Shown in pieces: positions 115-35,199 of a stretch of 35,660 bases of DNA. The notes below the pieces were generated by a model, which was not told the DNA's origin, ran no database searches, and saw only the letters and a program-made list of their open reading frames with translations. The first letter of the stretch is position 1. The number at the start of each line of letters is the position of its first letter. Both the position numbers and the translations under genes were made by a program. Source of the DNA: a virus. The stretch lies in the UHGV virus genome UHGV-0200663; one strand, given 5' to 3'.

Positions 115-840
115 TCACTTCGGGTATGGCTGAACCCTGAATAGCTTGGTGTTTAGGCGCTTTTTTGCGCGCTTATTCAGGAATCTGATGTAGCGATACT
201 GATTAAATTTGTGTACCACGGCCCGCTCCTTATTAGCCCGTAAATACACACCTCGTTGCCCTCCGCGCTTAATCGCGTTCATCGCTATCTCGTGATACCA
301 CTCGCCGTCCAGTTCGTAGAACGTGCTTTCGTGGCTGCCTATAAAATCAAAATTCGACGCCTGATATACCACGCCAGCACGTCCGCAGCGTTCGTCTGCA
401 AAAGACTGAACCCACTCAACTGACGGATACAGTAACCTGATGGTTTTCAGCGCGTAACTGATGGCCCGTGATTCAGAGTTGCGGGGCATGTCGTCGTGTA
501 GCCACATGCGATTCAGTTCCATATAGCCCCGGTTATCCGTTTCAAGCACGACCCGACGCCCTGAGTTGGGGTTAAGGGCATATCCCCACTGAAGAACGCC
601 AACCAGATCACGTCCGCTGAATACGCCAAGATGCAGGTAGGAGTTATTCACAAAACGGCGAGAATAGTGTTTTGTCTGAATGATTGTGCGGGCCAGCCAG
701 CAGGATATGGTTTCAACGCGCAGCTCCTTTGAACCATAGCCGACAATCCGGCCTTCATACTCAATAACGCAGGGTTTTGTCAGAATGCGTGATTTCTTCT
801 CTTTTCCCACAATACAGCTCCGTGGGATGCTCTTTGGCAT
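115..840 (-). CDS. mom: Mom-like DNA modification protein (adenine carbamoylmethylation, anti-restriction)
   Basis: Terminal gene position next to attR, immediately after and overlapping com, as in Mu. ATG at 840 (MPKSIP...); the ORF-track start at 852 is TTG. Confidence 0.75.
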
Positions 841-946
841 TCGATATGACAATGTAACGTTTACAGCGAGGGCATTTAATTTCTATATGCTTAAAACCTC
901 CTTTAAACAGTAATTTATTGCAGTTTTTACAGCGAACAGAGTCCAT
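761..946 (-). CDS. com: Com zinc-finger translational activator of mom
   Basis: [15 protein letters not shown]...[14 protein letters not shown]...[16 protein letters not shown]: four-Cys zinc finger matching Mu Com from recall. Start taken at second in-frame ATG (946); overlaps mom start by about 80 nt. Confidence 0.8.
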
Positions 947-973
947 GATTCCCCCTGTGTAATAACCAGACAT

Positions 974-1069
974 GAGCGCCCGGAGGGCTGGGGGTATTTA
1001 ATCACAATTGATGCAAACCGACGATCGATATGATGTTATCGATCGTCATAAACTATACATACTGATTAT
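974..1069 (-). promoter_or_regulatory. mom operon regulatory region with GATC-containing perfect inverted repeat (Dam/OxyR-type control region as in Mu Pmom)
   Basis: GACGATCGATA-TGATGT-TATCGATCGTC at about 1020-1047 carries two GATC sites; lies directly upstream of com on the minus strand. Confidence 0.55.
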
Positions 1070-1672: not shown

Positions 1673-4600
1673 TCATCGCGTCGGAACCATAGGTGTTTGT
1701 TACCCCGGACAGGGCGCGATATGTACCCGGTAATGAATGACCTGCATTTCCCATAACGTAGAATTGCGGGCTTGATGAATACGTTCCGGCTGGATTGTAG
1801 GGCGCTGAAATTCCCACCGGCCCCAGCCGTGAGCCTGCGTAATATTGCCCTCTCACAAGCTTGATTTTTGTATCTCCGTCAGTCGTTCCCTGGTATGCAG
1901 CAATAATCAGTCCACCAACATCAGGGTCTCCCCACTCATTGCTGATGGTCCCCCCCATAACATTATAAATATCGGCTGTGGATATCTTTATTCGCTCCCA
2001 GCCAACAAGACGCCCGTAAATATATCGGTTAAACCAGATATCACCGTTTCCTGCATAAAACATTATGCATTTTGCAGCATCTGACGGGGGCTTTGTTTCG
2101 TACTGGTTCATCTGCCAGATAACATCAAGAATACCCGTAAAATAAACACCAGGTATGATTGTTCCCTGATTAGGGACGGTTACCGCATAACGTCCCGGAT
2201 AAGCGTTTGTTACCCACGTGGTCAGCTCCGATGTGTTTTTAAAGGTGAGCTGGTCTTCTTTTCCAAACGGATAACCAAATCCGAATGCACCAGGAAGAGC
2301 CAGTTTATCTTCCGCCCGGTCATAAATATCACTCTGGGCGCTGTACGTATTCTTTTGCAACTCAAGAACAGACAGCATGTCTTCCGCTGTAGTCTGAGCA
2401 AGCAGCAGCCGGGCTTTTTCTGACAGTGGAGACAGTGAAGCATTCCCGTCCTGATTAAAGCACAGAAGATTATCTGCCCGTTGCGTCAGTTCACTGATAG
2501 CCGTCAGCACATCGTTCAGCGGTTGTTTACCGGCCAGCGCGTTCATGATTGTCGTCGCAAAGTTCGGGTCATTACCCAGCGCCGCTGCCAGCTCGTTCAG
2601 CGTGTCCAGGGCTTCCGGTGACGAGTCAACCAGTGCAGCAAGCAGTTTGCGGACAAACGCCGCATTGGCTATTTCATTACCTGCTGCATCATCTGGTGGT
2701 GTTGGCGTGGACGGCGTTCCGGTCAGTGTCGGACTGTTCAGTGGCGCACGGGTTTCAATCAGTGCCCGGAGTGAAACCTCGTTGACTTTCAGGTTTTCCC
2801 AGCCAACCAGATAACCATCTCCGGTAGTCCAGTAGCGATTGTAATAAATGTGGCCGTTAATACCGTAAAAAATAATGATTTTAGCCACACATGCCGGATT
2901 GGGGTTGGTTTGAGGTTCCGGCCAGATAATTTCAACGGTACCCTTGAACAGCACGCCCTGTATTACCGCATTTGTATCTGCATAAACGGCATAGCGTCCG
3001 GGTTTTGCCGTTTTTACCCAGCGGAGAAAATCGGCCTCTGTTTTAAACTCGGTCCTGTCGCCGCTGGAAAATATTTTCCCGAATCCGAACATGCCAGGAA
3101 CCGCCAGACGGCCTTCGGTGCGGTCGTAAATACTCTCCTGCGCATCCTTTTGTGCTGCATTGCCCAGTTGTGGCGTCAGATTCGTCCAGGTGACCGGGGC
3201 GGAGATATTATCGCCACGAACGGTCATAAGAATCCGTCCGTCTTTTCCAAAGAACAGAACCAGCTTTGTTGCTGTCTGACTGGTTTTGTCGCCCCGGCCA
3301 TTATCCAGCCAGATAATTTCTGTTATTCCGGTTGTTTTTTCCGTTTGTGTGGAAAAGGTGTAATACCGTCCCGGGTGCAGGTTGTGAGCGGTTCTGGCTA
3401 CAGTCGCCATATCGCTGGCAATAATTGAACGTGCTCCGGCGTCCGTCATTCCGTAACCATACGCACCGGGAAGCGCAACACGGCCTTCCATGCTGTCGTA
3501 AAGGTCTATCTGAATATCCCTTACCGCTGCGCTTTTCAGCTCAAGCTCATTGCGCATGGCTTCCGCTGTGGCCTGTGCCAGCAGTGACCGGGCTTTTTCT
3601 GACAGCGGAGACAATGAAGCATTTCCGTCATGATTAAAGCACAGAAGATTATCTGCCCGTTCTTCCAGATTACTGATTGCGGTTAACACGTCACTGAGTG
3701 GTTGTTTACCCGCCAGCGCGTTCAAGATTGTTGTCGCAAACTCCGGGTCATTGCCCAGCGCCGCTGCCAGCTCGTTCAGTGTGTCCAGGGCTTCCGGTGA
3801 CGAGTCAACCAGCGCAGCAAGCAGTTTGCGAACAAATGCCGCGTTCGCCATCTCCAGCCCGGTCGCATCGTCCGGCGGGGTTGGTGTGGTGGGCGTGCCG
3901 ATGAATGCCGGGCTGTCCAGTGGCGCTTTTGTTTTCGTCTCGTCCATGACGGTTTTGACGGCTTTTGGCGTGGCGGCCAGTTCTTCGCTGTCGTTGTCTG
4001 TATCACTACAGAGTTGCACCAGGCCTTTTTGCGTCGTGCTGGCGTTGGTTCCCTTCAGGTCATCAACTATCCGTTGCGCCTCGTCCCTGTGCTGTTTCGC
4101 GCTCTGCTCGCTTTTTGCTGCCGCTTCGGCGCTGGCTTTTGCCTCACCGGTCAGCGTTGCGGCATCAGCAAGTTTATCGACCGCTTTCTGGACTATCTTA
4201 TCGGCATCTTTGACCGCCTGTTCTGCCCGGGCGGCATTCTGGTTGGTCTCAGAGGCCAGCTCTTCAGCTTTCTGCACATTACCCGCGATTTCTTCTGCAT
4301 CCTGCTGTATTTCCCCGGCGAGCGCTTCTGTATCCTGGCGGGCCTGTTCAGCAGCGGTGGCGTGCTCTCCTGCTTTTTCTGCGCTTTGCTGCGCCTGTTG
4401 CGCCAGCTCTTCGAATTTCTTCAGGGCTTCCGGGCGCAGGTCAATATCGGTTGCGCCCAGAAAATCATTCAGCGAACCGTCCGCTGAATCTTCATAAACG
4501 CGGATGACACCGATTTCTGAAAGGCGCTGTGTGCTTTGTGTCAGGCGAACGCTGTACACACCCGGCAGAACGGTGAAGTCATATTCCCCGTTCTGTGTGG

Positions 4601-15339: not shown

Positions 15340-15916
15340 GGATCACGTCGTTAATTTCAGTGTGTTCACCGCAGCGCAGCGTTGCCCCGAGGCGCAGGAA
15401 GTCCGGGAGCGCGGCGAGATCAATCTCTTCATCCAGCCGGAATTCCTGCTCCCACGTCACCGCCCACATGGTGACACCCAGCCCGTCGAGGCTGGCGGAA
15501 TAAATGTTGTCTGCCCGCACATCAGCAGCCAGGCGTTCAGCCCCCATGGCCGCTGTGGCATCCGACGACAGCAGACGTTTGATCACCTTTCCGGCCAGTA
15601 CTTCACAGCGCACGTCGCGGGAATACCCCCACGAATCCGTTGCCATGATGTAAGCCACCCAGGTAACCAGACCGGACAGCCCACCGCGCGGGTTGATATC
15701 CCGGACACGCAGGGCAGCTACCCGGATACAGCCGGTGCGACCGGACAGATAGCGCTTCACCTCTTCCGGGCTGTTGAACTGGCCGATGTGACGCTCCACC
15801 ACGTCGGCCCGGTCAGGGGTTTTCCCCTGAAGTGCTGTTTTCAGCCAGGCTACAATGCGCTCTGCGGCCGCAACGGTGCTCCCCGGAGTGCGCAGTTCAG
15901 GGCGTTGTTCTGTCAT
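15305..15916 (-). CDS. Head-tail region protein (Mu gp37-like position)
   Basis: 203 aa; synteny only. Confidence 0.45.
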   Translation of the reverse strand: MTEQRPELRTPGSTVAAAERIVAWLKTALQGKTPDRADVVERHIGQFNSPEEVKRYLSGRTGCIRVAALRVRDINPRGGLSGLVTWVAYIMATDSWGYSRDVRCEVLAGKVIKRLLSSDATAAMGAERLAADVRADNIYSASLDGLGVTMWAVTWEQEFRLDEEIDLAALPDFLRLGATLRCGEHTEINDVIHVRGDDGTETD

Positions 15917-16455
15917 GGCAGAACCTCCTTCCAGAAATGACTGATAACCTGTTGCAGCTCCTGCTGGTTGGCAGAAGACAGCCCCAGAAATTCACGTTGC
16001 GGAATGTTCATCATGCGGTTATGTGCGCCGACGGTCTGCCAGACCGGATATTTCAGCGCCCGCCCGAAACACTGCGAGATAAGCCGTTTGTGGGCGCTGA
16101 CCGGCACACTGCCGGAAAAGCCGTCATTCATGATGCGGGCATAATCCAGCGGTGAACCGATACGCACCACGCGGTTTTCCACGATGTACTGGATACTCTC
16201 CAGCAGATGGCCTTCACCGCGCAGCAGACTCTGGTTGCCGTGGCGGGTCTTTTTGTACCCGTCAGACCAGTCTGGCCAGCGTTCGCCACCCGGACTGGTT
16301 TTCTCATCGATGATGCGGCGGCGGGTCTGTGATTCCACCACCGCACCGATGCTCTCCAGCAGCTCTGCCTGCAATGAACCATCTGCCAGCTTTTCAACGG
16401 CGCGGCGGATATCCTCCAGACGCTGGTCACCGCTGACCTGTACAGAAATCCCCAT
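15913..16455 (-). CDS. Virion morphogenesis / tail completion-like protein
   Basis: About 180 aa; ATG at 16455 in ATGA overlap with upstream stop (ORF-track start at 16458 is GTG). Confidence 0.45.
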   Translation of the reverse strand: MGISVQVSGDQRLEDIRRAVEKLADGSLQAELLESIGAVVESQTRRRIIDEKTSPGGERWPDWSDGYKKTRHGNQSLLRGEGHLLESIQYIVENRVVRIGSPLDYARIMNDGFSGSVPVSAHKRLISQCFGRALKYPVWQTVGAHNRMMNIPQREFLGLSSANQQELQQVISHFWKEVLP

Positions 16456-16892
16456 CACAGCACCCCTTTCAGGTTGTTACGGGTGAACAGCCGGGCATTG
16501 GCACCCACTACAATGATCTTCCCGTGGTCGGTTTCTGCCGGGGTGGCATACGTCGGCAGACCCAGGTCACGGGTGCCGTTCGCCATCTCACGCAGGGTTT
16601 TAATGGCGTCATCGTAGCGTTTCTGGATCAGCTCCGTGATTTGATTGTCACGCTCTGACAACCAGTAAAACGCCAGCGATACCGCCACGCGTTGCAGCGG
16701 GCGCGGGATTTCCGTCACCCCCAGCGGCAGCTGGTAGCGGCGGGACAGAAACGAATCAATTTCCGCTTCGGCATCACTGATGGCCTGACGGATTTTGTCT
16801 TCATCCAGTTCGTTGGTTTCCCGGTTAATCGCCATGTTCCAGACAAGATTGCCGTCCGCGCGTAACAGGTCTTCCTGCGTGATATACCCCAT
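16455..16892 (-). CDS. Head-tail connector region protein (Mu gp36-like position)
   Basis: 145 aa; ATGA overlap coupling. Confidence 0.45.
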   Translation of the reverse strand: MGYITQEDLLRADGNLVWNMAINRETNELDEDKIRQAISDAEAEIDSFLSRRYQLPLGVTEIPRPLQRVAVSLAFYWLSERDNQITELIQKRYDDAIKTLREMANGTRDLGLPTYATPAETDHGKIIVVGANARLFTRNNLKGVL

Positions 16893-17281: not shown

Positions 17282-18184
17282 TTATGCCGGGGTGGTGATG
17301 AACGGACTGACCACGATGTCCACATCCTTGTACCAGATGTTGGAATCGCCGCCGTTAACCAGCATGGCGTCAATGATGCGCTTCGCGGCTGCACGGTTTT
17401 TCTGCCCCACCACAAGGGTGGTCGGGCGGATGCCCAGCGGTTCACCGTTGGTGGTCTTCATACCCAGCAGCAGATTGCTGGCCTTCTCGTAGTTCTCCGC
17501 TGTCAGTGCCGCACGGGAACCGACGGCGGTCTGCCAGAAGCCGAAGCCCGCATTGCAGCGACCGTCCACCCCGTAAAGGAACTCGTTATTCTTGAAGGTA
17601 TGCTCGCTGTTCAGATCATCCAGGGCTTCAAACTTAAAGGCGCGTCGCGTCTGCCAGATGATGGGTTTCAGTACCTGAGAATCATCAATCAGAAACCACG
17701 GTTCCCCCTGGTCTGATGCCGGGGTGCCGACAACGTTGCTGCAGGTGCCGTCGCCCAGCGGGTGGTCTTCATCAAAGAAGTTCTGACCGTCAAAACACAG
17801 GGTGTTAAACCCGGCACACAGCAGGGGGTAACACAGCTTGTCCGGGAACTCCGACGTCTGGCGGCCATAGCGTTCAGCGATAATGCTGTACTGACCAATC
17901 TGATCGTCTTCAATGTGTTCGCGTTTAACGCGGATCGAACTTTCCCAGGTTTTGTTCGCAAGGGTGTAACCATAACCGTCCAGCGTTGCCATCTGACGGG
18001 CGCTGACCCATTCCTTAATCTCCGGTAAATCTTTCATCCAGCCGTAGGTATTGGAGGCGGACGAACTCGGGATTTCAGAGGCGATGCGCTGCCACTGTGG
18101 GGTGACACCACTCAGACCACGGGTATAAGCGGCGCTCAGACAGGTGGTCAGCGCGTGAAGGACTTCGGAAGTGACTGCTCCCAT
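17282..18184 (-). CDS. Major head (capsid) protein, Mu T-like
   Basis: 300 aa immediately downstream of protease/scaffold gene; ATGA overlap. Confidence 0.7.
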   Translation of the reverse strand: MGAVTSEVLHALTTCLSAAYTRGLSGVTPQWQRIASEIPSSSASNTYGWMKDLPEIKEWVSARQMATLDGYGYTLANKTWESSIRVKREHIEDDQIGQYSIIAERYGRQTSEFPDKLCYPLLCAGFNTLCFDGQNFFDEDHPLGDGTCSNVVGTPASDQGEPWFLIDDSQVLKPIIWQTRRAFKFEALDDLNSEHTFKNNEFLYGVDGRCNAGFGFWQTAVGSRAALTAENYEKASNLLLGMKTTNGEPLGIRPTTLVVGQKNRAAAKRIIDAMLVNGGDSNIWYKDVDIVVSPFITTPA

Positions 18185-19146
18185 CAGTTATTCTCCTGTT
18201 TAGGTTTAGCGGCGAGGAACTCTTCCCCGGTAATACCCATGCTGCGGCACATCGCCAGTTCGGCGTCGGTCAGTGTCTGCGCGGGTTTATCCTTGCCCTG
18301 GCTGGGCTTGTCGTTGTTCACCAGCGGCTGTGCACCTTTGGTGTACTCCGCAAACTGTTTGCGGCCTTCTTCCGTGCGGCAGGTGGCAAGGAACATGTCA
18401 CGGTTTGCCGGGGCCACTTTTCCGGCTTCGATGGCCGCATCCACAAGCGCTTCTGCTTCCTTCTCTTCCAGTTGCTGAAGGCGTTGTTCTGCGGTTTCGG
18501 CACGGTTCAGTGCCAGATTGTGGGTTTCCACCGGTACAAACTTCGTCAGGTCAGGTGTCTGTGCGCGGTTCAGCGCCACCTGTTCGTTCTCCTGAAGTTG
18601 TTTAATGGCGGCCACGGTATCGTCCACCGTGGCAGATTCAGCCAGCCCAAGCAGGCCGGTGATTTGCACAGGTACTGTCATCGGGTTTTTCTCCGTATTC
18701 AGTGCAGGAAAGTCCAGATTAGGTTTGTTGGTCAGCCCGACGCTGGACAGGCGCGTCACCACACCCTCCGCGTCATGGAAAAACGCCGGGCTGTAATAGC
18801 GGTAGCGGCGCTCGCTCAGCATCCACCGGGCGTATTCGCTCCAGACAACACGGCCTTCAATGGTGCCGCTGTCTGTCACCCGCAGTTCTTCCACCCAGCC
18901 ATACGCCGGGGCTTCATCACCGCGTTGCCCTTTAATTTCGGTGGCGTGTTCAATGTCCACCGGAATTTTGATGTCGGACGAACGGGCAACCACCTCATGC
19001 GGATTGCGGTTAATCCACGTCCGGCCATCGCGCCCGGTGAACTCACCCGCAGGAACGAGTTCAAGCCATTCCGGCAGTTGAGCAGGTGTCAGCTCAGGGA
19101 TGGGTTCTGGCAGGGAAAAACACAGCGCCAGCAGTTCCGGTTTCAT
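18184..19146 (-). CDS. Head maturation protease / scaffold, Mu I-like
   Basis: 320 aa, first gene after an intergenic region with terminator-like hairpins; Glu/Ala-rich C-terminal half. Confidence 0.65.
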   Translation of the reverse strand: MKPELLALCFSLPEPIPELTPAQLPEWLELVPAGEFTGRDGRTWINRNPHEVVARSSDIKIPVDIEHATEIKGQRGDEAPAYGWVEELRVTDSGTIEGRVVWSEYARWMLSERRYRYYSPAFFHDAEGVVTRLSSVGLTNKPNLDFPALNTEKNPMTVPVQITGLLGLAESATVDDTVAAIKQLQENEQVALNRAQTPDLTKFVPVETHNLALNRAETAEQRLQQLEEKEAEALVDAAIEAGKVAPANRDMFLATCRTEEGRKQFAEYTKGAQPLVNNDKPSQGKDKPAQTLTDAELAMCRSMGITGEEFLAAKPKQENN

Positions 19147-19195
19147 GTCAGTCTCCGTCGTCTGGGGTTACCGACGGTCAGTATGCGGAAGGCAG

Positions 19196-19220
19196 AAAAA
19201 AAGCCGGATTTACCGGCTTC
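19196..19220 (-). terminator. Hairpin plus T7 on gene strand (GAAGCCGG-TAAAT-CCGGCTT TTTTTTT), 50 nt upstream of the protease/scaffold ATG; identical copy at 26917-26941
   Basis: Read directly from sequence; 25/25 nt identical to the copy upstream of the endolysin gene. Confidence 0.5.
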
Positions 19221-19242
19221 ACTGAAAACGGGAAGAACCCCC

Positions 19243-19284
19243 CCTTCAAAACCCCTTCAAAAACGCCACAGCACCTTCAAAAAA
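19243..19284. repeat. Three direct repeats of CCTTCAAAA (minus strand TTTTGAAGG), spaced 11 and 20 bp
   Basis: Copies start at 19243, 19254 and 19274, in the intergenic region between the MuF-like and protease/scaffold genes. Confidence 0.5.
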
Positions 19285-19313
19285 GTCAGAATGCACATTC
19301 ACGCCATCAGAAT

Positions 19314-19338
19314 AAAAAACGCGTTTCTGATGCGTTTC
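19314..19338 (-). terminator. Rho-independent terminator candidate after MuF-like gene
   Basis: Minus strand GAAACGC-ATCAGAAAC-GCGTTT followed by TTTT, about 25 nt after the stop at 19361. Confidence 0.45.
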
Positions 19339-19360
19339 AGGGGGATTTACGGCGGGAGGG

Positions 19361-20125
19361 TTATTCACTGTCAAAACGTGCCTGTCTGGCTGCCAGCTGG
19401 CGTGCCAGCTCCTGCTCACGGTTTATGCCGGGGTTGTAGTTCCAGCCCGGATCAATCCCTTCCGGCACGTCTTCCTCTTCGCCCGTGCGTTTATTCACCC
19501 AGCGGACGGTTCTGATTTCCGGCGCTTCGGTGTGAATGGTGCCCTGTGCCGCCAGTTGCGCATACTCACCACGGCTGACCTGACGGATGGTGCATTTGCA
19601 GCCCCAGCCGTTAGGGGCAAAATGTGTCTGCCAGAACGGATGATCTACCGGCAGACACAGACGCGCCCATTTCACATGCTCCGCCCGGTGCTCGCGGGAT
19701 GGCCCCAGCTCGTAAATCAGATACGGCATGGCCCGCTTTGTTCGCTGAATGCGTTCCCACTGGCCCGCCGCGCGGGCAGTGCGCATGTTGGTGTCAAAAA
19801 TCGTGCGGAGGCGGCGGTCGCTGCCCAGCTGTACGGTTCGGGTTTCGCCCGTCAGCGGATCATCCATCTCCTGAACACCCCACCATCCGCGTTTTATCAG
19901 CAGCGGTTGCAGCGCCTCCCGGAACTCGCTGAACGTCTGTCCGCTTTGCAGGGCGTCTTCCACAAGGACTTTCACATCCGACAACAAATCCAGTTGCAGC
20001 ATTTTTGCCACGGTGAAGCTGTTCCGGTGTTCTTCCCGCCATACATCCCGGTAATCAAAACCGGGGCGCAGCTTCTTCGCCTTCAGCCACGCCAGCGCCT
20101 CTTTCGGGATGAGAGTTTCACGCAT
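19361..20125 (-). CDS. MuF-like minor head protein
   Basis: Downstream of portal as in Mu (H then F). ATG at 20125 (MRETLIPKE..) overlaps portal stop by 8 nt. Confidence 0.55.
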   Translation of the reverse strand: MRETLIPKEALAWLKAKKLRPGFDYRDVWREEHRNSFTVAKMLQLDLLSDVKVLVEDALQSGQTFSEFREALQPLLIKRGWWGVQEMDDPLTGETRTVQLGSDRRLRTIFDTNMRTARAAGQWERIQRTKRAMPYLIYELGPSREHRAEHVKWARLCLPVDHPFWQTHFAPNGWGCKCTIRQVSRGEYAQLAAQGTIHTEAPEIRTVRWVNKRTGEEEDVPEGIDPGWNYNPGINREQELARQLAARQARFDSE

Positions 20126-21689
20126 GACCGGTGTCCCCCAGCGCACGCGCCTTAAAGCACACCTCCGCCAGTTGCAGGGCAAAGTCGTCCGCGTTCAGCG
20201 TTTCCTGAAGCTCAGGCAGGCGTTTCAGAAAGTCATCAAAACTGTCGCATTCCTGCGCCAGTGTCAGCACCGGGTTCGTGAACGCTTCGCCGGTTTTCTG
20301 CCAGTCACGCAGGGCATCATCCACCATCTGTGCCAGTTCGTCGGGGTGTTCCCGGTTCAGGGCGACGCGCTCGCGGTTCATCGCCACATCACCTGACATT
20401 CCGGCAGACACCGGATGCAGAACATCAGCCCCGTCGTCCGGTTCAGCCAGGCCGAACCGGTCCCGCAGCTCCGATTCCTGAACCCGCATCCCCCGGTCAA
20501 TCAGTGGCACCAGAGCATCTGTCAGCGCCTTCAGATCTTCCGCTTCACTGATACGCAGAACAACACGGGGGTATTGCGCCTGTGGCCCGTAGTTGGCCTC
20601 GATATAGGGACGCACCAGATATTCATTCAGCGTGTTAGCCAGCTGCCGCGCGTCCCAGCGCACAATGTCCATACGCACCTGATTGTGCACGTCCGCCTGT
20701 GAACGCGAACTGCCGTTATCCGTGGTCATGGTCTGCCCCAGCACAGCCTTACTGATTTGCGCATCGCACCATTCCGCCATTTCACAGAACAGTGCACCGC
20801 CGTTATTCCGGCTGGCGGTTTCCTGCATCTCCAGTTGCATGGACTGCGGAATTGCACACCCGGCATCCGAGGCAATGGACGCAATCGCATCAATCAGTAC
20901 GCGGATTTGCTCCTCCGTGGCGTTGGGACCGTATTTCCCCACCGTGACCGGAATGCCGAACTTTTCCGCAAATGCCCACCAGTCACGCACGGTAAAGGAT
21001 TTCAGCATGTACATCACCGCTACCAGACGGGCCAGACCGTTACGCAGCGGCAGACCGGATTTCAGACGCGGCTGGTGAACAATGAATTTTCCCGGTGTCA
21101 GCGATACGCCATCCACCGGTTCATCGTCAGTCAGCAGGCGGAACTGGCGCAGCGTGGGTTTTTCGGCTTTCAGAAAACGGGGATCAACCCACTCATAATC
21201 ACGGGGCATCCAGTGGTTGTTGCGGGTGTCCCACAGGATTTCACAGACCGCCACGCCTTTTCCCAGCCCGTCGAGCAAATCAAACATCAGCTCAGGGATT
21301 TGCGGGGCTTCCATCAGCGCACGGATGGCGTCCGCCAGTTGCACGTCAGCATCGTCATCACTGGCGGCCACCACCACCGGTTCGATACCCGCCACCGTCA
21401 GCTTGCGGGTGCGCAGCACCGAGGCGTAATGCAAATCGCGCTCTTCCATCTCTTCAGCAAGGATAAAAAAATCACGCGTGATGCCGTCGGCGGCATTGCG
21501 CAGAATGCCTGCCAGCCTGCCGGGGTTCAGCCCGGAGGCGACGCTGATACCCGGCGAGGCCGAACGCACACCGGCATGACGCGGACGGGCCTGCGCTTCA
21601 TTGAGCGCCTCTTTTTTCAGCGTGCCTTCCTCACCGGTTGCCGGGTTCAGCAGACGGCGAACGGCCCCGGCCAGTTGTTTCAGGTTCAC
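20118..21689 (-). CDS. Portal protein (Mu H-like)
   Basis: 523 aa immediately downstream of terminase large subunit; GTG start at 21689 preceded by GGGAGG. Confidence 0.7.
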   Translation of the reverse strand: MNLKQLAGAVRRLLNPATGEEGTLKKEALNEAQARPRHAGVRSASPGISVASGLNPGRLAGILRNAADGITRDFFILAEEMEERDLHYASVLRTRKLTVAGIEPVVVAASDDDADVQLADAIRALMEAPQIPELMFDLLDGLGKGVAVCEILWDTRNNHWMPRDYEWVDPRFLKAEKPTLRQFRLLTDDEPVDGVSLTPGKFIVHQPRLKSGLPLRNGLARLVAVMYMLKSFTVRDWWAFAEKFGIPVTVGKYGPNATEEQIRVLIDAIASIASDAGCAIPQSMQLEMQETASRNNGGALFCEMAEWCDAQISKAVLGQTMTTDNGSSRSQADVHNQVRMDIVRWDARQLANTLNEYLVRPYIEANYGPQAQYPRVVLRISEAEDLKALTDALVPLIDRGMRVQESELRDRFGLAEPDDGADVLHPVSAGMSGDVAMNRERVALNREHPDELAQMVDDALRDWQKTGEAFTNPVLTLAQECDSFDDFLKRLPELQETLNADDFALQLAEVCFKARALGDTGHA

Positions 21690-26861: not shown

Positions 26862-26916
26862 AAAAGCACCTGTGAAGCAGATTTAAACGTGGTCTGCTTC
26901 ATGGTGCCGGAGGCAT

Positions 26917-26941
26917 AAAAAAAGCCGGATTTACCGGCTTC
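26917..26941 (-). terminator. Hairpin plus T7 on gene strand after the Mor/C-family gene, 56 nt upstream of endolysin ATG; identical to 19196-19220
   Basis: GAAGCCGG-TAAAT-CCGGCTT TTTTTTT on minus strand. Confidence 0.5.
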
Positions 26942-26946
26942 ATTGA

Positions 26947-27396
26947 TTAAGGGCGTCGTGGCGGACGACGAACGGGGTGAGGCAGGTTCGGGGAGGGGTA
27001 AAACAAATCCGGCTGGTATTTATTGCGCTCCAGACGTCGCATCCGTTTGATGGCCTTGTAGACGGTTTTATACGTCACCCCGTAACGCTGAACCAGTTCA
27101 GGAATATTATGGCCGTTAAAATCACGCCAGATACGCATATCCCGGACAAGATTCTCCAGAATATTCCCCCTCGGAACATAAACCTGCATCCCGCCGATAT
27201 GGCGACAAATCGCCACAACCAGCTCAAGGGAATGGGCAGGGTCTGCGCCAATCCGGGCCAGCTCTTTACGCAGCAGTGCGTTCAGTTCAGAAAGTAACGC
27301 CGGATAAGCGGTGTTTTCCTGGTAATCATGAAGATATTCCAGAACGCTGTCGTCCCGGAGGTCTTCGAATAAATCCTGCTCTTTCATCTGTTTCAT
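26947..27396 (-). CDS. mor: Mor/C-family transcriptional activator (middle/late gene activator)
   Basis: 149 aa in ATGA overlap with the gemA-like gene, as gemA-mor in Mu. Conserved C-terminal region ..HSLELVVAICRHIGGMQVYVPRG...RIWRDFNG...YGVTYKTVYKAIKRMRR.. Confidence 0.6.
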   Translation of the reverse strand: MKQMKEQDLFEDLRDDSVLEYLHDYQENTAYPALLSELNALLRKELARIGADPAHSLELVVAICRHIGGMQVYVPRGNILENLVRDMRIWRDFNGHNIPELVQRYGVTYKTVYKAIKRMRRLERNKYQPDLFYPSPNLPHPVRRPPRRP

Positions 27397-34859: not shown

Positions 34860-35199
34860 CAACCAGGAATCTAGCTAAAACACGCACTTTCCCTCAAGTA
34901 ACCTAGAGGGTAAGATACTGAAACAACAAAAGCTGTTTTTGATATACGTCATTCGCCAGAAGCCTGGTTGTTATCGGGTTTGAAGCGTTTTTGAAGCTGC
35001 AATTGAAATAATGCGTGAAGCAATTGCTTTTCGTATGTTTAATGAAACAAAAGCCATTTCTAACAATCTTTCGCGTTTCAATGCTTAACGGCTAAAATTT
35101 GCTCTACAGGCTTGCAAGCCCCACCAAATCTAATCCCGTCAAATCCCGAATAATCCAATATCCTCCCGGTTTTTTTCGTACTTCTCGTGAATCAATACA
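34860..35199. repeat. Prophage left end (attL) with transposase-binding sites
   Basis: Minus strand from 35199: TGTATTGATTCACGAGAAGTACGAAAAAAACC...; further CGAAA-containing repeats such as GTTTCATTAAACATACGAAAAG and GAAACGCGAAAGATTG. Confidence 0.75.

What the first reader, a model, noticed from the sequence alone, without database searches (positions are those of the whole stretch)
19147..19360. Structured 214-bp intergenic region between MuF-like and protease/scaffold genes
On the gene strand this region contains, in order: a terminator-like hairpin (19314-19338), three phased TTTTGAAGG direct repeats (19243-19284, spacing 11 and 20 bp, roughly one and two helical turns), then the shared hairpin element (19196-19220). 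Two terminators bracketing a repeat array could delimit a small RNA of about 90-110 nt or form an activator-binding array for the late I-operon promoter. Mu has a virion-morphogenesis gene between F and I; here that slot is non-coding.
Basis: partly seen in the sequence, partly recalled or inferred. Interest (0 to 1): 0.5.

Follow-up and report, generated by a model that had tools for sequence, protein, structure and literature searches.

The report
Mu-type gyrase site plus late promoter
This non-coding stretch in the middle of a Mu-like E. coli prophage matches phage Mu's central strong gyrase site followed by the activator-dependent promoter (doubling as a terminator) for the head genes, so it is a recognisable, already-understood kind of element rather than a small RNA.

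Summary
The three exact TTTTGAAGG copies, the hairpin shared with 26922-26940 and the non-coding F-I slot are all there and exceed chance.

The window is a Mu-like transposable prophage with MuA 97.6% identical, Mu-type ends and a length of about 35.2 kb. The 214-bp region lies 45% of the way along it.

Through intermediates, the region is homologous to Mu's G-I intergenic region. [quoted passage not shown]

The TTTTGAAGG array corresponds to the phased T-tract motifs of the Mu SGS right arm. The 20 and 11 bp spacing is the same in about 15 lineages. One genuine Mu-type prophage carries a 43/44-identical copy of the array in its G-I spacer.

The shared hairpin is a near copy of the Mu middle promoter Pm. 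It has a 16-bp Mor-binding site (14/16 identical) and a -10 hexamer at the same distance. The stem plus T7 also forms an intrinsic terminator.

The phage encodes one Mor orthologue (63% identical) and no C. The element sits in front of both the lysis and the head operons.

A small RNA is not supported. Gyrase cleavage and Mor dependence are inferred, not shown. Verdict: a new member of known kinds, of modest interest.

The parts
19233..19363 (.). Predicted strong-gyrase-site (SGS) homologue. This is the roughly 130-bp gyrase footprint centred on the predicted cut: left arm 19298-19363, right arm 19233-19297.
   Evidence: The region is homologous to the Mu G-I intergenic region, which carries the annotated 'gyrase cut site'. 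The 133-bp Mu SGS fragment used in vitro spans the same features. The site lies 45% of the way along the prophage.
19296..19299 (-). Predicted gyrase cleavage position, +/- 2 nt (GTGAA|TGTG). It is inferred only from gapless alignment to Mu AAAA|TCAG.
   Evidence: Alignment A2. Two crude gyrase-consensus proxies have their local maximum at 19297 and 19299, but the proxies are weak.
19301..19335 (-). Left-arm inverted repeat (CATCAGAA 19332-19325 / TTCTGATG 19312-19305).
   Evidence: I8. The fold is -11.5 kcal/mol with z = -1.7, and no T-run follows the stem. The terminator scan does not call it.
19274..19282 (-). Phased motif 1 (TTTTGAAGG), the distal right-arm bending signal.
   Evidence: The last two bases vary among close relatives.
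19254..19262 (-). Phased motif 2 (TTTTGAAGG), 20 bp after motif 1.
   Evidence: It is nearly invariant in 23 distinct close relatives.
19243..19251 (-). Phased motif 3 (TTTTGAAGG), 11 bp after motif 2.
19224..19229 (-). A/T-rich GTTTTC at the position of the Mu Pm proximal UP subsite (Mu has GTAAAC at -57..-52).
   Evidence: Alignment A5. Mu positions are taken from Tables 3 and 4 of PMC4390567.
19208..19223 (-). Mor-binding site AGTGA-AGCCGG-TAAAT. It is the counterpart of Mu Pm -51..-36, AGTAA-AGCCGG-TTAAT, and matches it in 14 of 16 positions.
   Evidence: It is invariant in 23 close relatives. It is kept in lineages that lost the hairpin's right arm.
19194..19220 (-). Intrinsic-terminator hairpin: GAAGCCGG 19220-19213, loop TAAAT, CCGGCTTT 19207-19200, T7 19202-19196. 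It overlaps the Mor site and the promoter spacer.
   Evidence: Two independent compensatory changes occur in other lineages.
19180..19185 (-). -10 hexamer CATACT of the late promoter PI. It begins 22 nt after the Mor site, as TATCCT does in Mu Pm.
   Evidence: Alignment A5 shows an invariant A and an invariant T(G) in all 15 elements. It also aligns with Mu PI CAAACT.
19171..19174 (-). Predicted transcription start of the I operon (about 19172). It is inferred by transferring the Mu Pm numbering.
   Evidence: Inference only.
19155..19177 (-). Leader inverted repeat CCGTCG/CGACGG. Its 3' arm abuts the Shine-Dalgarno GGAG (19156-19153). The I start codon is at 19146.
   Evidence: An inverted repeat is present at the same place in Mu and all relatives, each with a different sequence. 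Its function is unexplained.
26901..26944 (-). Second copy of the Mor-site/terminator/-10 module, in front of the endolysin gene. Mor site 26944-26929, hairpin 26941-26921, T7 26923-26917, -10 CACCAT 26906-26901.
26947..27396 (-). Mor orthologue, the only Mor/C-family gene in the window and the presumed activator of both modules.
   Evidence: Pfam Mor 3.6e-30. It is 63% identical to Mu Mor and 32% to Mu C. tblastn finds no second Mor/C locus.

Best explanation
The F-I intergenic region is the counterpart of phage Mu's G-I intergenic region and holds two adjacent, already known kinds of cis element.

(1) Positions 19363-19233 are the homologue of Mu's central strong gyrase site. A cleavage core is predicted near 19298/19297. 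The right arm carries the three TTTTGAAGG motifs at 20 and 11 bp, about two and one helical turns apart. These are phased A/T-tract bending signals that would wrap the arm round the GyrA C-terminal domain. In Mu this gives very efficient, processive supercoiling from the centre of the prophage, which helps the two ends synapse for replicative transposition.

(2) Positions 19229-19172 are a Mor-dependent promoter of the Mu Pm type for the I (protease/scaffold)-T (capsid) operon. The parts are an A/T-rich proximal UP-like subsite, a 16-bp Mor site (AGTGA-AGCCGG-TAAAT), no -35 element, a -10 hexamer CATACT and a start near 19172. The left arm and loop of the hairpin form the Mor site. The right arm and T7 complete an intrinsic terminator that should stop or attenuate transcripts arriving from the lysis-terminase-portal-F operon.

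The same module sits in front of the endolysin gene, where it would also terminate the early operon. This phage has Mor but no C, so it appears to run a two-step cascade (early, then Mor, then late) using Pm-type promoters.

Shown here: sequence homology, geometry, conservation and co-occurrence with a Mor orthologue.
Inferred: gyrase binding and cleavage, Mor binding, the start site, and termination.
For: Context:
- MuA is 97.6% identical, Ner 98.7%, the repressor 93.7% and Mom 96.7%, while head and tail genes are only 28-42% identical.
- Mu-type ends lie at window 35199 and at about base 1, so the region is 45% of the way from the left end.
- The Mu record annotates the gyrase cut site at 17879/17880, inside the G-I spacer, at 48.7% of that genome.

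SGS homology:
- Local alignment scores against 500 dinucleotide shuffles give window-TUM9757 G-I spacer z = 26.9, TUM9757-Mu z = 18.2, window-L028 z = 16.9 and L028-Mu z = 8.2.
- The L028-Mu match is the SGS right arm itself. The window-TUM9757 match is 43 of 44 nt over the repeat array.
- Three T-tract/RAA motifs spaced 20 +/- 1 and 11 +/- 1 bp lie upstream of I in most of the 15 lineages tabulated. The O157 Sp18-like spacer fits only partly.
- A regular expression for the triple motif hits once in the window (19280), once in the whole Mu genome (17895, 15 nt after the annotated cut) and never in 300 random sequences.
- The 10-11 bp A/T periodicity in the arm gives z = 2.85, against 3.45 for Mu.
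- The literature links the Mu right arm's phased bending signals to SGS function (PMC10052514; PMC6379681).

Promoter:
- The Mu Pm sequence, numbered from Tables 3 and 4 of PMC4390567, places the Mor site at AGTAAAGCCGGTTAAT and the -10 at TATCCT.
- The window elements match in 14 of 16 positions with identical 22-nt spacing to CATACT or CACCAT.
- The canonical A and T of the -10 are invariant in all 15 aligned elements.
- Every lineage has two copies, one before lys and one before I. The loop variant (TAAAT or TTAAT) usually, though not always, matches between the two copies of a genome.
- In L028-L036 and Trabulsiella the pre-I copy keeps the Mor site but has lost the right arm and T-run.
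- The activator is 63% identical to Mor with a near-identical helix-turn-helix.
- The region from -10 to the leader aligns with Mu PI (CCTTCCGCATACTGAC against CCTCCCGCAAACTGAC).

Terminator:
- Searches support the hairpin and T7.
- Two compensatory double changes occur in B. salicis and Pluralibacter.
Against: - No experiment exists for this prophage. Gyrase cleavage, Mor binding, the start site and termination are all inferred.
- Direct window-Mu similarity is marginal on its own (z = 2.4, 14 of 500 shuffles). It comes mainly from the -10 region, so the SGS link rests on intermediates.
- The cleavage core differs from Mu's.
- My gyrase-consensus proxies put the site only in the top 0.6-1.2% of window positions. 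They also fail to rank the true Mu SGS first, so they cannot discriminate.
- A/T periodicity in the arm is elevated but not unique in the genome.
- The triple-motif pattern was designed after seeing the sequences.
- The site is 1.7 kb off the exact centre.
- According to the review PMC10052514, only one heterologous prophage site could replace the Mu SGS. Sequence resemblance therefore does not guarantee function.
- A functional terminator overlapping the promoter at pre-I is dispensable in some lineages.
Confidence: 0.75

Rival explanations
1. The interval between the two hairpins encodes a small RNA of about 90-110 nt that ends at the shared terminator.
For: A good intrinsic terminator lies at 19220-19196. 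A sub-threshold Rfam hit to sroD spans 19195-19284 (E = 0.076). The region is strongly conserved among close relatives.
Against: The scan finds no promoter-like site in 18000-20500. The sroD hit scores 20.7 bits against a gathering score of 50, and its aligned part is only the terminator stem-loop. The whole region folds no better than shuffles (z = -1.6). In L028-L036 the terminator is gone while the repeats stay. Across lineages the motif sequence changes (GAAGG, AAAC, GAAC) but the 20/11 phasing is kept, which is a DNA-geometry signature rather than an RNA-structure one. In L059 and L069 the array sits 15-30 nt from the I start codon.
Confidence: 0.03
2. The TTTTGAAGG repeats are sequence-specific binding sites (iterons) for a phage or host protein that regulates PI or another process. 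They are not passive gyrase-wrapping signals.
For: There are three exact 9-mers on roughly one face of the helix. They lie at about -70 to -109 from the predicted PI start. An unrelated IMG/VR contig (L063) has tandem arrays of the same 11-mer, TTTTGAAGGGG, next to primase/ATPase replication genes, and these look like iterons.
Against: The homologous position in Mu lies inside the experimentally defined SGS fragment and right arm. The motif sequence is not conserved among lineages whose early and regulatory proteins are nearly identical, whereas the spacing is. The same array occurs with three unrelated I-gene and promoter types. In Mu Pm, mutations upstream of -57 had no effect on activity (PMC4390567).
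Confidence: 0.1
3. The shared hairpin is only a duplicated intrinsic terminator that ends the early operon and the lys-F operon. It has no promoter function, and I is expressed by read-through.
For: It has canonical terminator features. Compensatory changes preserve the stem in two lineages. Pre-lys copies always keep the stem and T7-8.
Against: The loop and left arm are kept across lineages and at both sites, which a terminator does not require. The L028-L036 and Trabulsiella pre-I copies have lost the stem and T-run but keep exactly the 16 nt that equal the Mu Mor site. A -10 hexamer with an invariant A and T sits at a fixed 22-nt distance in all 15 elements. The same sequence in Mu is an experimentally characterised promoter.
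Confidence: 0.07
4. The spacer is a decaying remnant left when gene G moved or was deleted, and has no function of its own.
For: Mu has G in this slot, and here a G-family gene lies elsewhere, at 15913-16458.
Against: tblastn with Mu G finds no G-like coding remnant. Among 23 distinct relatives the spacer is at least as conserved as the flanking genes. Its elements are retained in lineages whose I proteins are only about 60% identical.
Confidence: 0.03

Closest known systems
Bacteriophage Mu central strong gyrase site (SGS; Pato, Howe & Higgins 1990; Oram & Pato 2004; Oram et al. 2006). The original papers are not held in the library and are cited through PMC10052514, PMC3820752 and PMC6379681.
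   Same: - It lies immediately upstream of gene I, near the middle of a Mu-type transposable prophage.
- Its right arm carries three T-tract motifs with the same 20 and 11 bp phasing.
- It is linked to the Mu site by statistically strong intermediate homologies.
- A genuine Mu-type prophage (E. coli TUM9757) carries a 43/44-identical array in its G-I spacer.
   Different: - The motif is TTTTGAAGG rather than TTTTTAAAC.
- The cleavage core sequence differs.
- The left arm is non-coding and holds an inverted repeat, whereas in Mu it lies inside gene G.
- The roughly 29-nt pyrimidine-rich segment between the arm and PI is absent.
- The site is at 45% of the genome rather than 49%.
- Gyrase activity is untested.
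Mu middle promoter Pm with its Mor-binding site (Artsimovitch & Howe 1996; Ma & Howe 2015, PMC4390567; Mo & Howe 2014, PMC4287176)
   Same: - The 16-bp 5-6-5 element matches in 14 of 16 positions.
- The same 22-nt distance separates it from a weak -10 hexamer.
- There is no -35 element.
- A T7 run lies in the spacer.
- The flank just upstream is A/T-rich.
- The element lies within a hairpin plus T-run directly after an upstream gene.
- The cognate activator is a 63%-identical Mor orthologue.
   Different: - In Mu this promoter drives the middle operon (ending in C) and occurs once.
- Here it occurs twice and drives the late lysis and head operons directly, because there is no C gene.
- The -10 and leader of the pre-I copy are homologous to Mu PI, so the promoter is a Pm/PI mosaic.
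Mu late promoter PI (C-dependent; Margolin et al. 1989). C-site consensus TTAT-N5-6-ATAA (PMC12867686).
   Same: It occupies the same position in front of I. The -10 and downstream sequence are homologous (CCGCAnACTGAC). A leader inverted repeat lies at the same place.
   Different: The activator site is Mor-type (AGTGAAGCCGGTAAAT), not C-type (Mu has CAAATAGCATAACCCC). No C protein is encoded.

Membership tests
Mu-type strong gyrase site (SGS) | Located near the centre of a Mu-like transposable prophage genome | tested here: met
   The prophage ends lie at window 35199 and about base 1. The predicted cut near 19297 is 15.9 kb along a 35.2-kb genome, or 45%. In Mu the cut is at 17,879 of 36,717, or 48.7%. 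The transposition genes are Mu-type, with MuA 97.6% identical.
Mu-type strong gyrase site (SGS) | Lies in the intergenic region directly upstream of the protease/scaffold gene I | tested here: met
   The same holds in the lineages examined.
Mu-type strong gyrase site (SGS) | Sequence homology to the Mu SGS, especially the right arm | tested here: met
   Homology is transitive: window-TUM9757 z = 26.9, TUM9757-Mu z = 18.2, window-L028 z = 16.9, L028-Mu z = 8.2 (right arm, 29 of 36 identical). Direct window-Mu similarity is only z = 2.4.
Mu-type strong gyrase site (SGS) | Extended set of phased anisotropic bending signals in the right arm | tested here: met
   Three T-tract motifs are spaced 20 and 11 bp, as in Mu. 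The triple motif is unique in the window and in the Mu genome. The 10-11 bp A/T periodicity gives z = 2.85 against 3.45 for Mu, which is elevated but not unique.
Mu-type strong gyrase site (SGS) | High score with the 130-bp gyrase motif of Sutormin et al. 2018 | tested here: inconclusive
   The position matrix (their Table DS10) is not held. Proxies built from the published consensus give z = 2.3-2.6, with the local peak at 19297-19299. They rank the true Mu SGS only 28th to 274th, so they do not discriminate.
Mu-type strong gyrase site (SGS) | Strong, single quinolone-induced gyrase cleavage and processive supercoiling; required for rapid replicative transposition | not testable with these tools
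   This needs Topo-Seq or in vitro cleavage, plus Mu delta-SGS replacement assays.
Mor-dependent (Pm-type) promoter | 16-bp element of two 5-bp inverted repeats around a G/C-rich hexamer, overlapping the -35 region | tested here: met
   The window has AGTGA-AGCCGG-TAAAT at 19223-19208, against Mu AGTAA-AGCCGG-TTAAT at -51..-36.
Mor-dependent (Pm-type) promoter | Recognisable -10 hexamer at the Pm distance and no -35 hexamer | tested here: met
   CATACT begins 22 nt after the Mor site, as TATCCT does in Mu. The A and T are invariant in all 15 elements. The standard sigma-70 scan, which needs a -35, finds nothing.
Mor-dependent (Pm-type) promoter | A Mor protein encoded by the same phage | tested here: met
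   Gene 26947-27396 has a Pfam Mor match at 3.6e-30. It is 63% identical to Mu Mor and 32% to C. It is the only such gene in the window.
Mor-dependent (Pm-type) promoter | Mor-dependent transcription initiation and a Mor footprint | not testable with these tools
   This needs reporter fusions, 5'-end mapping and EMSA or DNase I footprinting.
Rho-independent terminator | G+C-rich stem-loop immediately followed by a U-run | tested here: met
   The stem has 8 bp with 5 G-C pairs, a 5-nt loop and U7, at -12.6 kcal/mol. Pairing is kept through two compensatory changes in other lineages.
Small regulatory RNA | Own promoter, a conserved or covarying structure, or membership of a described family | tested here: not met

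The most novel reading that the evidence does not exclude
The terminator half of the module at pre-I and the conserved inverted repeat between the -10 and the I ribosome-binding site might together form a switch. Read-through transcripts from the lysis-F operon would be terminated, or would fold so that the I ribosome-binding site is masked. Only Mor-initiated transcripts, which start inside the 5' arm, would then translate I efficiently. This would insulate head-protein synthesis, and the neighbouring gyrase site, from upstream transcription.

Alternatively, the TTTTGAAGG array may be a protein-bound iteron set rather than a passive bending signal.
Probability: 0.12. Interest if true: 0.5.

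Novelty: new member of a known kind. Interest (0 to 1): 0.3.

Why it matters
The result assigns clear, testable roles to a conserved non-coding region found in Mu-like prophages of 46 of 5,426 complete E. coli genomes and in related Enterobacterales.

It extends the set of candidate strong gyrase sites to a lineage with different head genes. It also gives a simple sequence signature for finding them: three T-tract motifs spaced 20 and 11 bp, upstream of gene I.

It shows natural module swapping. The same right arm is found with three different I-gene and promoter types. A Mor-type activator site is grafted onto a PI-type core promoter in a phage that lacks C, which implies a shortened two-step transcription cascade.

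None of this overturns current understanding. It is careful annotation rather than discovery.

Tried and rejected
- Rfam at gathering thresholds found nothing. At permissive E-values there was only a sub-threshold sroD hit, caused by the terminator stem.
- BLAST of the region against the phage collection gave only partial coding hits. Distant blastn against E. coli genomes did not connect it to Mu directly.
- I first placed the hairpin centre at -37 and read that as a conflict with the published '-43.5' for Mor and C sites. Numbering Mu Pm from the published mutant tables resolved it: the Mor site is the left arm plus loop, not the whole palindrome.
- I looked for third and fourth copies of the box upstream of the tail and mom genes, allowing up to 5 mismatches. 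None was convincing.
- I tried to score the site with the gyrase motif of Sutormin et al. The matrix sheet is truncated in the held supplement. Two proxies built from the consensus were too weak to rank even the real Mu SGS first.
- The original SGS and promoter papers are not held: PMC438558, PMC1347280, PMC55030, PMC209851 and NAR 24:450. A search for the Mu early terminator name 't9.2' found nothing. That this hairpin is the known early-operon terminator in Mu is therefore only my recollection.
- The genome-contig scan with an I-protein alignment used a single peptide pattern and returned only 8 loci.
Full report
**What is there.** All genes around the finding are on the - strand. The order is portal (20118-21689), F (19361-20182), the 214-bp spacer (19147-19360), I protease/scaffold (18184-19146) and T capsid (17282-18184).

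On the gene strand the spacer reads as follows: an inverted repeat CATCAGAA/TTCTGATG (19332-19305); three exact TTTTGAAGG motifs (19282-19274, 19262-19254, 19251-19243); then GAAGCCGG-TAAAT-CCGGCTTT followed by T7 (19220-19196); then CATACT; then a short leader; then the I start codon.

The 9-mer occurs nowhere else in the window, with 0.34 expected and 0 of 100 shuffles reaching three. The 19-nt hairpin recurs exactly at 26922-26940. The shared stretch is about 45 nt long.

The downstream hairpin is a canonical intrinsic terminator. The upstream inverted repeat is not: its fold has z = -1.7, no T-run follows the stem, and the scan does not call it.

**What the window is.** It is a Mu-like transposable prophage.
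- The left end, TGTATTGATTCAC..., lies at 35199, and the window begins three bases inside a Mu-type right end.
- MuA is 97.6% identical, Ner 98.7%, the repressor 93.7%, Gam 92.5% and Mom 96.7%.
- The head and tail proteins are only 28-42% identical to Mu's.
- A G-family 'virion morphogenesis' gene is present, but downstream at 15913-16458.
- Near-identical prophages occur in 46 of 5,426 complete E. coli genomes. None has an annotated feature in the spacer.

The spacer lies 15.8-16.05 kb from the left end of a 35.2-kb element, or 45%.

**The repeat array corresponds to the right arm of the Mu strong gyrase site.** The Mu record annotates a 'gyrase cut site' at 17879/17880, inside the 196-bp G-I spacer. 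Just to its right Mu reads TTTTTTAAAAC-N-TTTTTAAAC-N-TATTTAAC. That is three T-tract motifs with the same 20 and 11 bp spacing as the window's repeats.

Direct window-Mu similarity is marginal (z = 2.4). Intermediates make the homology firm:
- Window against the G-I spacer of a genuine Mu-type prophage in E. coli TUM9757: z = 26.9, with 43 of 44 nt identical over the repeat array.
- TUM9757 against Mu: z = 18.2.
- Window against IMG/VR relative L028: z = 16.9.
- L028 against Mu: z = 8.2. The matched segment is the right arm, AAACGCGCCACnGnnTTTTTAAACnnGTnTTnAACG.

Across about 15 lineages, three T-tract/RAA motifs spaced 20 +/- 1 and 11 +/- 1 bp precede gene I, although the motif sequence differs (GAAGG, AAAC, GAAC). 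The lineages are E. coli, Raoultella, two Brenneria, Pluralibacter, Trabulsiella, Citrobacter, Apirhabdus, a MAG and several IMG/VR contigs, plus an O157:H7 Sp18-like prophage that fits only partly.

A regular expression for the triple motif hits once in the window (19280) and once in the entire Mu genome (17895, 15 nt after the annotated cut). It never hits in 300 random sequences of window-like composition. The pattern was written after seeing the sequences, so this is corroboration rather than an independent test.

Gapless alignment puts the Mu cut AAAA|TCAG opposite window GTGAA|TGTG, at about 19298/19297.

Reviews and the Topo-Seq paper state three things: the Mu SGS is central; its right arm is essential; and the right arm carries phased anisotropic bending signals thought to wrap on the GyrA C-terminal domain (PMC10052514; PMC3820752; PMC6379681). 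The 133-bp Mu SGS fragment used in vitro spans exactly these motifs.

My attempts to score the site quantitatively were weak. Proxies built from the published gyrase consensus give z = 2.3-2.6, peaking at 19297-19299. The same proxies rank the real Mu SGS only 28th to 274th. A/T periodicity is elevated to a degree similar to Mu (z = 2.85 against 3.45) but is not unique.

**The shared hairpin is a Pm-type, Mor-dependent promoter that doubles as a terminator.** Directly after the mor stop codon, Mu reads ACAGTAAAGCCGGTTAATCCGGCTTTTTTTACGTCCTCAATATCCTG.

Ma & Howe 2015 give Pm positions -68..-62 as CCCTCAC and -57..-52 as GTAAAC. They describe the Mor site as two 5-bp inverted repeats around a G/C-rich hexamer at -51..-36 (PMC4390567). 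Laid on the Mu sequence, this makes the Mor site AGTAA-AGCCGG-TTAAT and the -10 TATCCT.

The window's two elements, AGTGA-AGCCGG-TAAAT (19223-19208) and AATGA-AGCCGG-TAAAT (26944-26929), match in 14 and 13 of 16 positions. Each lies exactly 22 nt upstream of a weak -10, CATACT or CACCAT.

In an alignment of 15 such elements, the core GGTnAATCC and the canonical A and T of the -10 are invariant.

The Mor site is therefore the left arm plus the loop of the hairpin. This explains why the pre-I copies of L028-L036 and Trabulsiella keep those 16 nt while the right arm and T-run have decayed.

Every lineage has two copies, one in front of the endolysin and one in front of I. In most of them the loop variant (TAAAT or TTAAT) is the same at both sites. 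When an extra gene lies between Mor and the endolysin, the element stays next to the endolysin.

The window encodes one Mor/C-family protein (26947-27396). It is 63% identical to Mor, with an almost identical helix-turn-helix, and only 32% identical to C. There is no second copy.

Downstream of the Mor site, the pre-I copy is homologous to Mu's C-dependent PI (CCTTCCGCATACTGAC against CCTCCCGCAAACTGAC). The promoter is thus a mosaic of a Pm-type activator site on a PI-type core.

The stem is also under selection as a structure. Pre-lys copies always keep the stem and T7-8. Two lineages have compensatory double changes in the pre-I copy only, GGCGG/CCGCC and AACCGG/CCGGTT. The signal is modest, because 10 of 500 shuffles reach it.

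**How it most likely works.**

Shown:
- the homology
- the geometry
- the conservation
- the presence of the cognate activator gene

Inferred:
1. Gyrase binds the 130 bp centred near 19297, wrapping the phased right arm. It supercoils the prophage domain from near its centre, helping the Mu-type ends to synapse after induction.
2. Mor, made at the end of the early operon, binds at 19223-19208 and at 26944-26929. It recruits RNA polymerase to start near 19172 and near 26893.
3. The hairpin plus U7 terminates the early operon at the lysis junction. It also terminates or attenuates lys-F transcripts in front of I.

With no C gene, the cascade would be early, then Mor, then late.

**Rivals.**
- A small RNA is not supported. 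The scan found no promoter-like site, no Rfam family fits, the fold is no better than shuffles, and the terminator is lost in one lineage while the repeats persist.
- Repeats acting as protein-binding iterons cannot be excluded. An unrelated contig (L063) has tandem TTTTGAAGGGG arrays beside replication genes. Conservation of phasing rather than sequence, and the same array occurring with three different promoter and I-gene types, argue against it here.
- 'Terminator only' and 'decayed remnant of G' are contradicted by the pattern of conservation.

**Comparison with what is known, and novelty.** Both elements belong to known kinds, the Mu SGS and the Mor-dependent Pm promoter. I recall that Oram & Pato (2004) surveyed candidate gyrase sites in Mu-like prophages. 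That paper is not held, so I could not check whether this lineage was included.

What may be new is modest. It comprises this lineage's SGS variant, the evident modular exchange of right arms and activator sites, and the use of Pm-type promoters for late operons in a phage without C.

I rate it a new member of a known kind, with interest 0.3.

Noticed in passing
window 19155-19177 (- strand); Mu NC_000929 about 18020-18045: An inverted repeat lies between the PI -10 and the I ribosome-binding site in Mu and in every relative, each with a different sequence: CCGTCG/CGACGG here, CTGCTCA/TGAGCAG in Mu, TGTCCGTC/GACGGACA in Raoultella, GTCCGG/CCGGAC in L028. Four of the eight fold with z <= -3.9. 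The 5' arm starts 2-4 nt after the -10, so only read-through RNA could form the stem. The 3' arm abuts the Shine-Dalgarno sequence. The function is unexplained.
   Followed up: partly
window 26874-26900 (- strand): The endolysin leader has a comparable 8-bp inverted repeat, GAAGCAGA/TCTGCTTC, just after the predicted -10 CACCAT.
   Followed up: no
window 118-1060 (- strand): The prophage carries com/mom, with Mom 96.7% identical to Mu's, but has no C gene. The region upstream of com keeps a cluster of GATC sites but not Mu's C site TTATGCCCCAATAA. It is unclear what activates mom.
   Followed up: partly
L063 12563-12699 (IMG/VR 3300042691_026848): Two arrays of tandem 11-mers, TTTTGAAGGGG, lie next to primase-like and AAA-ATPase genes in a G+C-rich contig that is not Mu-like. 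They look like replication iterons and share the window's repeat unit by sequence.
   Followed up: partly
L059 about 1999-2020 and L069 about 3266-3287 (IMG/VR): A third type of I gene has the same TTTGAAGG x3 array (20/11 spacing) only 15-30 nt upstream of its start codon. It has no Mor box or hairpin.
   Followed up: partly
L003 1239-1736, L005 1421-1900, L027 1274-1762, L028 1409-1927: Some relatives carry an extra gene of about 160-170 aa, encoding a signal peptide, between mor and the promoter/terminator module. These relatives also have shorter Mor alleles (133-136 aa where PGAP annotates them), yet the module is unchanged.
   Followed up: no
L037 1-2383 (E. coli TUM9757): This Mu-type prophage has two Mor-family genes, each followed by a glycoside-hydrolase (endolysin-like) gene. 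Its G-I spacer is a mosaic of a Mu-like cleavage core and PI with the window-type right arm.
   Followed up: partly
L039 2065-2145 (E. coli O157:H7 H2495, Sp18-like prophage): PGAP annotates a 'tRNA-OTHER' on the opposite strand between F and G of this Mu-like prophage.
   Followed up: no
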